Shown here piece by piece: positions 8,137 through 49,329 of a stretch of DNA of 64,000 nt (its first letter is position 1; each line of letters opens with the position of its first letter). Under the pieces are notes generated by a model that worked only from the letters and a program-made list of their open reading frames with translations, had not been told where the DNA came from and searched no databases. Origin of the DNA: Acidimicrobiales bacterium (GTDB lineage: Bacteria; Actinomycetota; Acidimicrobiia; Acidimicrobiales; JBBSGY01); contig JBGAQY010000007.1 in assembly GCA_044220495.1 (NCBI GenBank), forward strand, positions 11,112-75,111, read 5' to 3'. The position numbers and the translations under genes were made by a program.

Positions 8137-8229
8137 CCCATTCGGTAGCCCGGCTGCCATGAGGGAAGATCCCTGTAAGGCCCTTGGCTTTGCGCCTCAC
8201 CGATTTCTCGGTGGTTGCCGTTTCGTGGG
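8137..8229 (-). ncRNA. Class I cyclic-di-GMP (GEMM-I) riboswitch aptamer
   Basis: Minus strand CCCACGAAACGGCAACCACCGA-GAAA-UCGGUGAGGCGCAAAGCCAAGGGCCUUACAGGGAUCUUCCCUCAUGGCAGCCGGGCUACCGAAUGGG. It shows P1 CCCACG/CG..UGGG, a GNRA-capped P2, GCAAAGCC, a tetraloop-receptor-like CCUUA..AUGG, and G20/A47/C92 equivalents. Confidence 0.85.
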
Positions 8230-47485: not shown

Positions 47486-48427
47486 TTGGCCAAAGAGCGT
47501 ATAGAGCGAGATGAAGAAGACCTTGTCCGTCTCTACCTCACCGACATTGGGCAGTACCCACTGCTCACCAAGGACGACGAGGTTCGCCTCGCCCAAGCCA
47601 TCGAAGCCGGCAACGAAGCTCGTGTCGCGTTCGAAGCGACGGCCAAGGCTGACCTAACTGCCGCCAAAAAGCGTGAGCTGCGCAAGCTCATGCAAGCCGG
47701 TGCCGATGCTCAGCGCACATTCGTTCAGTCGAACCTTCGACTTGTTGTTTCGATTGCGAAGAAGTACCAGGCTTCTGGTCTTCCGCTTCTTGATCTGATT
47801 CAAGAGGGCAACCTCGGTCTTATGCACGCCGTCGAAAAGTTCGATTGGCGTAAGGGCTTCAAGTTTTCGACCTACGCAACTTGGTGGATTCGCCAAGCAA
47901 TTACTCGCGGTATCGCCAACACTGGCCGCACTATTCGTCTGCCAGTACACGCCGGCGACACGCTTGCTCGGTTGCAGAAAGCGCGTGCGCGTCTTGAGCT
48001 CAAACTCGGTCGTCCAGCAACGCTTACCGAGCTTGCTGCCGAAGTCGAGATGGAAGAGTCAAAGGTCACCGAAGCTCTGCGTTTCGCAGCTGAACCGCTT
48101 TCACTTTCCGAACCACTGCGTGAAGATGGCGATGCCGAACTGGGCGACGTCGTTGAAGATCGTTCCGCCGAGTCTCCATTCGAAGTCGCAGCGACTTCAC
48201 TCTTGCCCGAAGAGATCACGCGCCTGTTGGCGCCTCTCGACGAGCGCGAGCGTGAGATCCTGCGTCTGCGTTTCGGTCTCGACCGCGGCGAACCCCGCAC
48301 TCTCGAAGAGGTTGGCGAATACTTCAACCTCACTCGTGAGCGCATCCGTCAGATCGAAGCCCGCGCGATGTCGAAGTTGCGTCACCCGAGCTCCGATACT
48401 GGCGCCCGCGACCTCCTCACCGTCTAA
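47486..48427 (+). CDS. Sigma-70 family factor, group-2-like (no region 1.1)
   Basis: VRLYLTDIG, NLRLVVSIAKKY, DLIQEGNLGL, KFSTYATWWIRQ and TLEEVGEYFNLTRERIRQIE motifs. Confidence 0.93.
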   Translation: MAKERIERDEEDLVRLYLTDIGQYPLLTKDDEVRLAQAIEAGNEARVAFEATAKADLTAAKKRELRKLMQAGADAQRTFVQSNLRLVVSIAKKYQASGLPLLDLIQEGNLGLMHAVEKFDWRKGFKFSTYATWWIRQAITRGIANTGRTIRLPVHAGDTLARLQKARARLELKLGRPATLTELAAEVEMEESKVTEALRFAAEPLSLSEPLREDGDAELGDVVEDRSAESPFEVAATSLLPEEITRLLAPLDEREREILRLRFGLDRGEPRTLEEVGEYFNLTRERIRQIEARAMSKLRHPSSDTGARDLLTV

Positions 48428-48530
48428 CTCTCGGGCTGAATTCGCCTGTCGCGGCGTTCTCGGCTCGTCGCTGGCCGTTGCCAGCGTCCTCGCCTGCGGC
48501 CTTGCGACAGACGAATTCAGCTCCGAGAGT
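48427..48530. repeat. About 104-nt imperfect palindrome (REP-like), starting at the sigma gene stop codon
   Basis: actctcgg-gctgaattcg-c-ctgtcgc ... gcgacag-a-cgaattcagc-t-ccgagagt, with an inner gctggc-cgtt-gccagc hairpin. Confidence 0.8.
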
Positions 48531-48581
48531 CCTCGCCCACCACGCGGCTGGCGCACGTCGAGGTCGTGCAGTCGGCTTGAG

Positions 48582-48970
48582 TCGGTGGTTCCTCGGACGG
48601 GTCGTTCTGGCTTCGCCAGTCACTCCCGTCCTACGCGCCCGGCTGCGCGCACGTTGCAGTTGTCCCTGGCGCGAGTCGGGCGGTTTGCGCGCTGACTTAC
48701 ATCGGTGGTTCCTCGGACGGGTCGTTCTGGCTTCGCCAGTCACTTCCGTCCTGCGACCGAGGCTGGCGCACGCCGGGGTTGCTCAGTGCGGCGCCTCGCC
48801 CGCACTTGCTTTCAACTACGCGAAAAGGTCAAAAAAGGCCTAGGTCCGGGCTGTTTCTGGTCATTTCGCGTGGTTGAAACGGGGTTGCTCAGTGCGCACC
48901 TCGGTGGTTCCTCGGACGGGTCGTTCTGGCTTCGCCAGTCACTCCGTCCTGCGACCCAGGCTGGAGCACG
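48582..48970. repeat. Three direct copies of a ~70-nt structured repeat in a mosaic (REP/BIME-like)
   Basis: tcggtggttcctcggacgggtcgttctggcttcgccagtcact(c/t)ccgtcct at 48582, 48702 and 48901, each followed by a ggctggcgcacg-like tail; cggggttgctcagtgcg also occurs twice. Confidence 0.9.
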
Positions 48971-48981
48971 CTGACAGCGCG

Positions 48982-49329
48982 CTAATCGTCTTTCTGCAGC
49001 AGTTCGTGAATCAGCGCCAGGATTTCCTCAGCGGCTTCGACGCTTAGGTCGGGGTCGGCTGCTAGGTGCGATTCGATGATTGCCGCGGCGCCCTCGTTTT
49101 GCAGTTCTTTTGAATGCACGAAGCGGTCTGCGGTTATGCCAAGCCAATCGATGATGCGCTCAAAGTCGGCTGCCCTTGGGAGCTCGCCGGCTTCGACGTG
49201 CGCGAGCGTTTCCATCGAAACGTCGCATTGATGTGCGGCGGAGCGCAACGTCAGATTGTTGTCGGTGCGGTGTTTGCGCACCAGCGACGGAAGTTGGTGA
49301 AGGCTCAGTGGAGCGTCGGGGCTGGTCAC
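48982..49329 (-). CDS. XRE-family helix-turn-helix regulator
   Basis: LTLRSAAHQCDVSMETLAHVEAGELP...IIDWLG. Confidence 0.8.
   Translation of the reverse strand: MTSPDAPLSLHQLPSLVRKHRTDNNLTLRSAAHQCDVSMETLAHVEAGELPRAADFERIIDWLGITADRFVHSKELQNEGAAAIIESHLAADPDLSVEAAEEILALIHELLQKDD

What the first reader, a model, noticed from the sequence alone, without database searches (positions are those of the whole stretch)
48427..48975. 550-nt mosaic of four related structured repeats sharing conserved internal-loop motifs
Three near-identical units fold as (cc)tcggt-GGTTCCTC-ggacggg-TCGTT-ctggc-ttc-gccag-TCACT-cccgtcc-TGCG-accga(gg). The preceding 104-nt palindrome has different stems but the same unpaired words (GTTCTC-gg, TCGT, ctggc/gccag, CCTC, cc-TGCG), i.e. 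conserved loops with exchanged stems. The intervening sequences are unequal (48 and 128 nt), one carrying its own long hairpin and a duplicated cggggttgctcagtgcg. No cas, RAYT or transposase gene is nearby. This points to a REP/BIME-like or MITE-like family recognised as ssDNA or RNA structure, possibly undescribed.
Basis: partly seen in the sequence, partly recalled or inferred. Interest (0 to 1): 0.65.

Follow-up and report, generated by a model that had tools for sequence, protein, structure and literature searches.

The report
Gene-end cluster of small hairpin repeats
The 550-base stretch after a sigma-factor gene is a pile-up of three kinds of small non-coding repeats, and its big palindrome is one copy of an apparently undescribed miniature transposable element found across Actinomycetota, which in this genome sits on the stop codons of highly expressed genes.

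Summary
The features are real, but they are three different things.

(A) 48426-48530 is a 105-nt palindrome with an asymmetric conserved core (GGCGTTCTCGG...CCTGCGGCCTTGC).
- It has about 18 full copies in this 3.0-Mb MAG. Covariance models also find it in 15 of 151 genomes of the order and 33 of 401 of the phylum.
- Elsewhere it is the centre of a roughly 170-nt element with terminal inverted repeats.
- A filled versus empty orthologous site in two congeneric genomes shows that it is mobile and flanked by TA.
- In this genome, 17 of 18 copies lie in sense orientation 0-20 nt after a gene end. Twelve of those genes are translation, transcription or chaperone genes.

(B) The three "units" are a local tandem array found nowhere else. 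Their kinship to A is not significant (E 0.14-2.8).

(C) The "long hairpin" is a copy of a separate 70-nt palindromic family, with 25 full copies.

No RAYT, no IS630-type transposase and no Rfam match were found.

G:T and A:C mismatches in the stems are equal, which argues against selection for an RNA fold on one strand.

Verdict: a new member of a known kind (MITE), with a stop-codon habit like the mycobacterial TRIT motif.

The parts
47486..48427 (+). Sigma-70 family gene (313 aa); its TAA stop (48425-48427) abuts the base of the palindrome
   Evidence: Pfam Sigma70_r1_2/r2/r3/r4; ORF list
48426..48530 (+). Family-A element: a 105-nt palindrome. 5' arm 48428-48452, asymmetric core 48451-48505 (GCGGCGTTCTCGG...CCTGCGGCCTTGC), 3' arm 48504-48530
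   Evidence: CM R1 118 bits; CM R2 88 bits, E 3e-22; fold z -7.7; covariation in family alignment
48546..48653 (+). B unit 1 of a local tandem array (hairpin part 48582-48640; 3' outer stem not kept)
48668..48773 (+). B unit 2 (hairpin part 48702-48762)
48761..48798 (+). First 37 nt of B unit 3, cut off from the rest by an 89-nt insert; holds the first copy of the 17-nt direct repeat (48774-48790)
48810..48879 (.). Family-C element: a 70-nt palindromic repeat, TTTCAACTACGCGAAA...TTTCGCGTGGTTGAAA
   Evidence: 25 full copies of exactly 69-70 nt (one of 94) plus 29 solo arms in the genome; fold
48880..48971 (+). Remainder of B unit 3 (hairpin part 48901-48960); begins with the second copy of the 17-nt direct repeat (48880-48896)
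48982..49329 (-). Convergent small HTH_31 (XRE-like) gene; its stop lies 10 nt from the end of B unit 3

Best explanation
The 550-nt tract is a gene-end landing zone between two convergent genes. It has collected three kinds of non-coding repeat.

- Its full form elsewhere is about 170 nt, with terminal inverted repeats.
- It inserts at TA (often C-TA-G or T-TA-A, which in GC-rich genomes lie mostly at stop codons) and duplicates the TA.
- It must be moved in trans by a transposase that I could not identify. A Tc1/mariner/IS630-like enzyme is inferred from the TA duplication alone.
- In this genome a shorter form, lacking the outer arms, sits with its 5' foot on or just after the stop codon of the upstream gene. 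It is almost always in sense orientation and mostly follows very highly expressed genes, so it is transcribed as a long 3'-UTR or intercistronic hairpin.
- I infer, but have not shown, that this hairpin is tolerated or mildly useful there as a transcript-end or processing structure. The orthologous sigma gene of a sister genus has an ordinary U-tract terminator at the same place.

(B) The three 'units' are a local tandem triplication of a unit of about 110-120 nt. It may be a diverged offshoot of the core-plus-3'-arm tandem duplications that family A forms at four other loci. This is not demonstrably so.

(C) A 70-nt palindromic element of a second, more numerous family landed inside the third unit.

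Shown: copy numbers, distribution, covariation, the insertion polymorphism, the gene context and the absence of RAYT.
Inferred: the transposase type, the RNA-level role and the origin of B.
For: Copies and structure of family A in this genome:
- BLAST and regex find 14 copies of the 55-nt core, four loci holding tandem pairs of about 95-100 nt.
- CM R1 finds 23 hits, including diverged subfamilies.
- In the stems, 93.5% of cells are paired, against 72% in shuffles and about 40% when partners are slid. Nineteen pairs show changes on both sides.

Distribution:
- 15 of 151 genomes of the order (14 of 123 genera), with up to 17 copies per genome.
- More than 120 loci in MAGs labelled Thermoleophilia, Acidimicrobiia and Actinomycetes.
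- 33 of 401 sampled genomes of the phylum.

Mobility:
- Elsewhere the hairpin is the centre of a roughly 170-nt palindrome ending CTAG...CTAG or TA...TA.
- G136 has a 171-nt element between two adjacent genes where congeneric G077 has a 7-nt spacer. The element is flanked TA...TA, and G077 carries an 87%-identical TA-flanked copy at another locus.
- The rpsG-fusA spacer and the 3' flank of the sigma gene in sister genera lack the element. G001 has AAAAAAGCGCCCCTGCGGGCGCTTTTTTT after the orthologous sigma gene, which is 92% identical.

Gene context in this genome:
- 17 of 18 full copies start 0-20 nt after a co-oriented gene end.
- The upstream genes are L31, L15, S7, L11, EF-Tu (two copies), IF-2, RpoB, GroEL (two copies), sigma-70, a tRNA, LexA, SufC and three others.
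- In other genomes the element is co-oriented with flanking genes 69 times and opposed 36 times (p 0.0017).

B and C:
- B units are found only at this locus.
Against: - No autonomous element with matching ends was found. IS630-type DDE_3 is absent from 10 of 11 element-bearing genomes, and the one hit has no matching ends.
- In this genome only a minority of copies show clean TA...TA flanks. The common subfamily ends ...GGAGTT-CC at its 3' side instead. The short form may therefore be old and immobile, or moved differently.
- The inner asymmetric core is far better conserved across three classes than the terminal repeats. That is the reverse of what ordinary MITE decay predicts, and it is unexplained.
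- The extreme sense bias and the enrichment after highly expressed genes in this genome are not explained by TA targeting alone.
- The genome is a MAG. A second tuf copy next to one element is riddled with frameshifts, so repeat copy numbers, including the three B units, may contain assembly error.
Confidence: 0.68

Rival explanations
1. Family A is, in this lineage, primarily a domesticated RNA signal rather than selfish DNA. It would be a sequence-addressed 3'-end hairpin, like the TRIT motif of Mycobacterium. Its conserved internal loops would be read by a host factor (RNase III or another dsRNA-binding protein) to set transcript ends or to uncouple cistrons in highly expressed operons.
For: - 17 of 18 copies are in sense orientation, 0-20 nt after gene ends. 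Twelve follow translation, transcription or chaperone genes or a tRNA.
- The core is nearly invariant while the stems vary with compensation.
- It occupies the place of a canonical terminator seen in the sister genus.
- No U-tract terminator lies in the tract.
- One copy, after a tRNA upstream of tuf, is kept in all three genera of the family.
- There is a 2:1 sense bias phylum-wide.
- TRIT overlaps stop codons and appears to be cut by RNase III (PMC3152330, PMC13714241).
Against: - G:T wobble cells (163) are no commoner than A:C cells (169) in stems of 146 copies, so nothing shows that the sense-strand RNA fold is what is selected.
- Most copies are lineage-specific insertions.
- One third of copies in other genomes are antisense.
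- No expression data could be obtained.
Confidence: 0.3
2. The elements are REP/BIME-like sequences mobilised by a RAYT (Y1/HUH) transposase acting on folded single-stranded DNA.
For: - The repeats are palindromic and extragenic.
- The otherwise regular stem carries conserved asymmetric bulges (a bulged T, TT, and a GTTCTC/TGCG loop) of the kind that ssDNA recombinases read.
- There is an orientation bias relative to genes.
Against: - PF01797 (Y1_Tnp) has no hit in the genome, while the same search found it in 6 control genomes.
- There is no GTAG/CTAC foot.
- The elements are 105-170 nt with terminal inverted repeats and TA flanks.
- The MAG is 97% complete, so a missed gene is possible but unlikely.
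Confidence: 0.04
3. The three B units are an independent structured non-coding RNA or regulatory array, and not junk tandem DNA.
For: - Each unit can form a three-helix hairpin.
- The units lie in the same orientation as the sigma gene.
- They share short loop words with family A.
Against: - Fold energies are barely better than shuffles (z -0.8 to -2.0).
- The differences between copies break pairs instead of compensating.
- No homologue exists anywhere in this genome or in 150 genomes of the order.
- There is no Rfam match.
Confidence: 0.05

Closest known systems
IS630/Tc1-mariner-derived bacterial MITEs (e.g. RUP of Streptococcus pneumoniae; Correia/NEMIS elements of Neisseria)
   Same: - Small (100-170 nt), non-coding and multi-copy.
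- Terminal inverted repeats and TA flanks.
- Presence/absence polymorphism.
- Fold into long hairpins when co-transcribed. Correia elements are RNase III substrates (PMC13714241).
   Different: - No partner transposase was found.
- The best conserved part is an asymmetric internal core, not the termini.
- In this genome a short form without the outer repeats sits on stop codons, almost only in sense orientation.
TRIT ('Tuberculosis Rho-independent terminator') motif of Mycobacterium (Gardner et al. 2011, PMC3152330; RNase III processing proposed in PMC13714241)
   Same: - A conserved palindromic motif with many copies.
- A very narrow position overlapping or abutting the stop codon.
- Found in a phylum poor in U-tract terminators.
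- Its sequence conservation is unexplained.
   Different: - TRIT is about 50 nt, largely symmetric, and reported only in Mycobacterium.
- The present element is 105-170 nt with an asymmetric core and shows transposon-like insertion.
- Sequence homology could not be tested, because no TRIT sequence was available to me.
REP/BIME and REPIN-RAYT systems of Proteobacteria
   Same: - Extragenic palindromes at gene ends.
- Clustered mosaics of several repeat types in one spacer, as in BIMEs.
   Different: - No RAYT gene and no GTAG foot.
- Longer elements with terminal inverted repeats and TA flanks.
MIRU (mycobacterial interspersed repetitive units)
   Same: Tandem 40-120-nt units in spacers inside operons, touching the stop codon of the upstream gene. 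This resembles the core-plus-3'-arm tandem pairs of family A and the B array. The comparison rests on my own knowledge and was not checked here.
   Different: MIRUs are not palindromic and contain small coupled ORFs. No such ORFs are evident here.

Membership tests
Bacterial MITE (Tc1/mariner-IS630 type) | Short, non-coding, many dispersed copies | tested here: met
   18 full copies and further partial ones in G000. Up to 17 copies per genome in others. No credible ORF in the element.
Bacterial MITE (Tc1/mariner-IS630 type) | Terminal inverted repeats | tested here: met
   The long forms end CTAGTGGYCCGTC.../...GACGGRCCACTAG or CTAGGAGACTGCTGA.../...TCAGCAGGCTCCTAG. The short form in G000 is a palindrome throughout.
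Bacterial MITE (Tc1/mariner-IS630 type) | TA target-site duplication | tested here: inconclusive
   Met for the long form: the filled site in G136 and the second copy in G077 are both flanked TA...TA, and the short form L123 reads C-TA-[..]-TA-G. The empty-site spacer has diverged, so the exact target cannot be read. In G000, clean TA...TA is seen in only a few copies.
Bacterial MITE (Tc1/mariner-IS630 type) | Presence/absence polymorphism at orthologous sites | tested here: met
   G136 is filled and G077 is empty. The G000 sites after rpsG and the sigma gene are filled, while G001 and G002 are empty.
Bacterial MITE (Tc1/mariner-IS630 type) | Autonomous IS with the same ends encoding a DDE transposase | tested here: not met
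   PF13358 is absent from 10 of 11 carrier genomes. The single hit (G054) has no matching ends. No pair of terminal repeats lies 1-2 kb apart. MAGs often lose IS copies, so this is weak negative evidence.
REP/BIME-RAYT | RAYT (Y1_Tnp, PF01797) gene in the genome | tested here: not met
   No hit in G000. The search was positive in 6 control genomes.
REP/BIME-RAYT | 20-40-nt imperfect palindrome preceded by conserved GTAG/CTAC | tested here: not met
   Read directly from the sequence: the elements are 105 nt or longer and have no GTAG foot.
TRIT (Mycobacterium) | Conserved palindrome positioned on or next to the stop codon | tested here: met
   In G000, 17 of 18 copies lie 0-20 nt from the gene end, and several include the stop codon in the stem.
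TRIT (Mycobacterium) | Sequence or covariance-model homology to the TRIT alignment | not testable with these tools
   No TRIT sequence or model is in Rfam, in the paper text or in its supplements. No named Mycobacterium genome could be addressed.
Any Rfam RNA family | Match at or near the gathering score | tested here: not met
   Only chance miRNA-like hairpin hits at E 0.25-0.33 in the region. Nothing on 15 loci from other genomes.
CRISPR array | Regularly spaced identical repeats with unique spacers, and cas genes | tested here: not met
   Spacing is 120 and 199 nt. The neighbours are nadE, sigma-70, an HTH gene, a HAD hydrolase and Tad pilus genes.

The most novel reading that the evidence does not exclude
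The asymmetric core (GGCGTYCTCG - variable hairpin - CCTGCGKCCTTGC, with a bulged TT and a bulged T in the 3' arm) is kept almost letter for letter in Thermoleophilia, Acidimicrobiia and Actinomycetes, while everything around it varies. It may be a functional module read by a conserved protein. On this reading the element is a mobile, sequence-addressed gene-end signal. This lineage would have recruited it, in sense orientation, to punctuate its most highly expressed operons (r-protein operons, rpoBC, tuf, groEL, sigma). It would be a transposon-borne counterpart of the unexplained mycobacterial TRIT.
Probability: 0.18. Interest if true: 0.7.

Novelty: new member of a known kind. Interest (0 to 1): 0.42.

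Why it matters
Actinomycetota are poor in classical U-tract terminators, and how their transcripts end is an open question. The only conserved gene-end motif described so far, TRIT, remains unexplained.

The present family is phylum-wide and mobile, sits on stop codons and carries a strongly conserved asymmetric core. It offers many natural insertion and empty-site pairs, and one genome where it sits in one orientation after the most expressed genes. That makes it a convenient system for two tests:
- whether such hairpins shape mRNA 3' ends or operon stoichiometry;
- which protein reads them.

For annotation, recognising the family prevents these tracts from being called sRNAs, CRISPR-like arrays or ORFs.

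Tried and rejected
- **Rfam.** Searched the window, the region at E up to 10, and 15 foreign loci. Nothing but chance miRNA-like hairpin hits.
- **RAYT/Y1 transposase in the genome.** None.
- **IS630-type DDE_3 in 11 carrier genomes.** One unrelated hit.
- **Terminal-repeat pattern scan for an autonomous copy.** It found only MITE-sized pairs (155-167 nt) and 98-nt deletion derivatives.
- **B unit in 151 genomes of the order.** Only chance hits.
- **Is B a family-A member?** CM R1 gave no hit at E up to 1. CM R2 gave E 0.14 and 2.8. Alignment against shuffles gave p 0.04-0.11. Kinship is not established.
- **Strand-specific RNA selection, tested by G:T versus A:C counts.** No asymmetry.
The stem starts at or after the stop codon.
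- **Plasmid and phage collections.** No match.
- **First orientation test with raw ORFs.** It was uninformative because its search window missed the outer repeats. I replaced it with a tblastn-based test.
- **Literature.** No description of this family was found. A 2024 MITE review does not mention actinobacterial MITEs.

Full report
**1. What is in the sequence**

The tract 48427-48975 lies between two convergent genes. On the + strand is a sigma-70 gene (47486-48427; Pfam regions 1.2, 2, 3 and 4). On the - strand is a small HTH_31 gene (48982-49329).
- a 103-nt palindrome at 48428-48530;
- three copies of a 64-nt unit starting at 48582, 48702 and 48901;
- a long hairpin around 48808-48882;
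- an exact 17-nt direct repeat at 48774-48790 and 48880-48896.

The palindrome folds far better than shuffles (-64.4 kcal/mol, z -7.7). The three units do so only marginally (z -0.8 to -2.0). Rfam has nothing here except chance miRNA-like hairpin scores.

**2. Three families, not one**

The window is part of a 3.01-Mb MAG of 109 contigs with 57.6% G+C. BLAST of each piece against it separates them:
- The 64-nt units occur only at this locus.
- The 55-nt core of the palindrome has 14 copies on five contigs. Four of those loci hold tandem pairs with a 91-101-nt period.
- The arms of the long hairpin belong to a different, numerous family.

I call these A (the palindrome), B (the units) and C (the hairpin).

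**3. Family A in this genome**

An alignment of ten own copies plus one from a sister genus shows three things:
- The words GGCGTTCTCGG and CCTGCGGCCTTGC are invariant.
- The apical stem covaries (GCTGGC/GCCAGC, GCCTAC/GTAGGC, GTTGGC/GCCAAC).
- The long outer stems differ from copy to copy yet stay paired. 93.5% of cells are paired, against 72% in column shuffles and about 40% when partners are slid. Nineteen pairs change on both sides.

A covariance model (R1) finds 23 matches. These include diverged subfamilies with GTTACC or GTTGAC in place of GTTCTC.

The gene context is striking. Of 18 full-length copies, 17 begin 0-20 nt after the end of a co-oriented gene, and the stop codon often lies in the foot of the stem. 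The upstream genes are:
- L31, L15, S7, L11, EF-Tu, GroEL, LexA and SufC, confirmed with NCBIfam;
- a second, frameshifted EF-Tu copy, a second GroEL, IF-2 and RpoB, identified by my reading of the translations;
- the sigma-70 gene of the window;
- a tRNA;
- three unnamed genes.

One copy is antisense, between an ORF and prcB.

**4. Family A elsewhere**

- R1 finds the element in 15 of 151 genomes of the same GTDB order (14 of 123 genera), with up to 17 copies per genome.
All were in MAGs labelled Thermoleophilia (Solirubrobacterales, Gaiellales, Thermoleophilaceae, Miltoncostaeaceae), Acidimicrobiia, Frankiaceae or Mycobacteriales.
- A second model (R2), built from 75 of these loci, finds the element in 33 of 401 sampled genomes of the phylum.
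- None of 15 such loci matches Rfam.

In most of these genomes the 105-nt hairpin is only the centre of a palindrome of about 170 nt. The outer 30-nt arms differ between subfamilies but end in CTAG...CTAG or TA...TA. G061 also holds 98-nt derivatives. In these the core has been lost between two direct repeats, and the outer arms are kept.

**5. Mobility**

Two congeneric genomes give a clean filled and empty pair.
- In G136 a 171-nt element lies between two adjacent co-directional genes.
- In G077 the same two genes (78-82% identical DNA) are 7 nt apart.
- G077 carries an 87%-identical copy at another locus.
- Both copies read ...T-TA-G[TC]GG...CC[AG]C-TA-..., that is, TA on both sides.

Within the family of the window's genome, the element after rpsG is missing in both sister genera. 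The orthologous sigma gene of G001 (92% identical protein) is followed by a textbook terminator, AAAAAAGCGCCCCTGCGGGCGCTTTTTTT, and not by any A or B repeat. One copy, after a tRNA upstream of tuf, is shared by all three genera.

Family A is therefore a non-autonomous mobile element of MITE type. TA flanks point to a Tc1/mariner/IS630-like transposase, but this is inference only:
- PF13358 is absent from 10 of 11 carrier genomes.
- The single hit has no matching ends.
- The genome has no Y1/RAYT gene.

**6. DNA palindrome or RNA structure?**

If the sense-strand RNA fold were under selection, G:U cells should outnumber A:C cells in the stems. In 146 distinct copies they do not (163 against 169). 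The copy-specific but complementary arms therefore look like a property of the DNA palindrome, for example correction between arms or the way the element is copied. They do not look like compensatory RNA evolution.

Two observations nevertheless ask for something beyond random TA insertion. Neither is explained.
- There is an orientation bias with respect to flanking genes: 69 co-oriented against 36 opposed in other genomes (p 0.0017), and 17 against 1 in this genome.
- Conservation is reversed from what is usual. The asymmetric core is nearly invariant across three classes, while the terminal repeats vary.

**7. Families B and C**

The B units are a tandem array with a period of about 108-120 nt: 48546-48653, 48668-48773, and 48761-48798 continued at 48880-48971. 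Nothing like them exists elsewhere in this genome or in 150 genomes of the order.

Their likeness to A, the same short words in the same order, is not significant:
- R2 gives E 0.14 and 2.8, the same as hits in coding DNA.
- Alignment gives p 0.04-0.11.

B may be a diverged continuation of the core-plus-3'-arm tandem duplications that A shows at four loci. That is a guess.

The hairpin inside the third B unit is a copy (48810-48879) of family C. This is a 70-nt palindrome, TTTCAMCYACGCGAAA...TTTCGCGTRGKTGAAA, with 25 full copies and 29 solo arms in the genome. Together with 19 further bases it is bracketed by the 17-nt direct repeat. The origin of that duplication is unexplained.

**8. Comparison with what is known**

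- The closest kinds are IS630/Tc1-type bacterial MITEs such as RUP and Correia elements.
- For the stop-codon habit, the closest is the mycobacterial TRIT motif. TRIT has 147 palindromic copies centred at about -8 from the stop codon (PMC3152330), and it is now proposed to be cut by RNase III (PMC13714241).
- Homology with TRIT could not be tested.
- REP/RAYT is rejected.
- I found no description of this family in the literature library.

Earlier unchecked notes of this scan describe similar CTAG- or TA-seeking stop-codon hairpin elements in Gaiellaceae and other soil Actinomycetota. They agree with my reading but are not independent evidence.

**9. Caveats**

- The genome is a MAG.
- A frameshift-riddled second tuf copy warns of consensus errors near repeats.
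- Gene calls outside the window come from my own crude codon-usage caller.
- GTDB group names are hidden. The class names come from NCBI record titles.

Noticed in passing
window 48810-48879, and 24 other loci of G000 (e.g. C7:15731-15800, C47:105084-105153): A 70-nt palindromic repeat family of fixed length. It has conserved arms of about 25 nt (TTTCAMCYACGCGAAAAGNCCAAAA) and a variable 20-nt centre. There are 25 full copies and 29 solo arms, all intergenic. It is probably a second MITE or REP-like family, and it may be the '74-76 nt' family noted earlier in this genome.
   Followed up: partly
G000:C94:88851-90050 (outside the window): A second tuf (EF-Tu) copy directly after fusA switches reading frame several times, while the other copy (C94:113596-114783) is intact. 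It is either a decaying paralogue or consensus error in the MAG where two near-identical genes were merged. Both copies are followed by the same family-A subtype.
   Followed up: partly
G000:C94:114989-115091; L092 (G001) 1201-1307; L002/L014 (G002) 272-376: A family-A-like hairpin immediately after a tRNA gene upstream of tuf is kept in all three genera of the family, unlike the other copies. The tRNA's 3' end seems to form part of the 5' arm.
   Followed up: partly
L227, L228, L229 (G061): 98-nt derivatives of the 167-nt element. The conserved core has been deleted between two 18-nt direct repeats (CCAGATGACGCCCCTGGC) and the outer terminal repeats are kept. They occur at three different loci and in two terminal-repeat subtypes.
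   Followed up: partly
window 48774-48790 and 48880-48896: An exact 17-nt direct repeat brackets an 89-nt insert (19 nt plus the 70-nt family-C element) inside B unit 3. This is far too long for a usual target duplication. Its origin is unexplained.
   Followed up: no
window 8141-8229 (-): A c-di-GMP-I riboswitch aptamer (Rfam RF01051, 62 bits against a gathering score of 35).
   Followed up: no
G000:C67:123534-123572: A 'minimal' family-A relic next to the infB copy. GGCGGCGTTCTCG is joined directly to CCTGCGGTC, with no apical hairpin.
   Followed up: no
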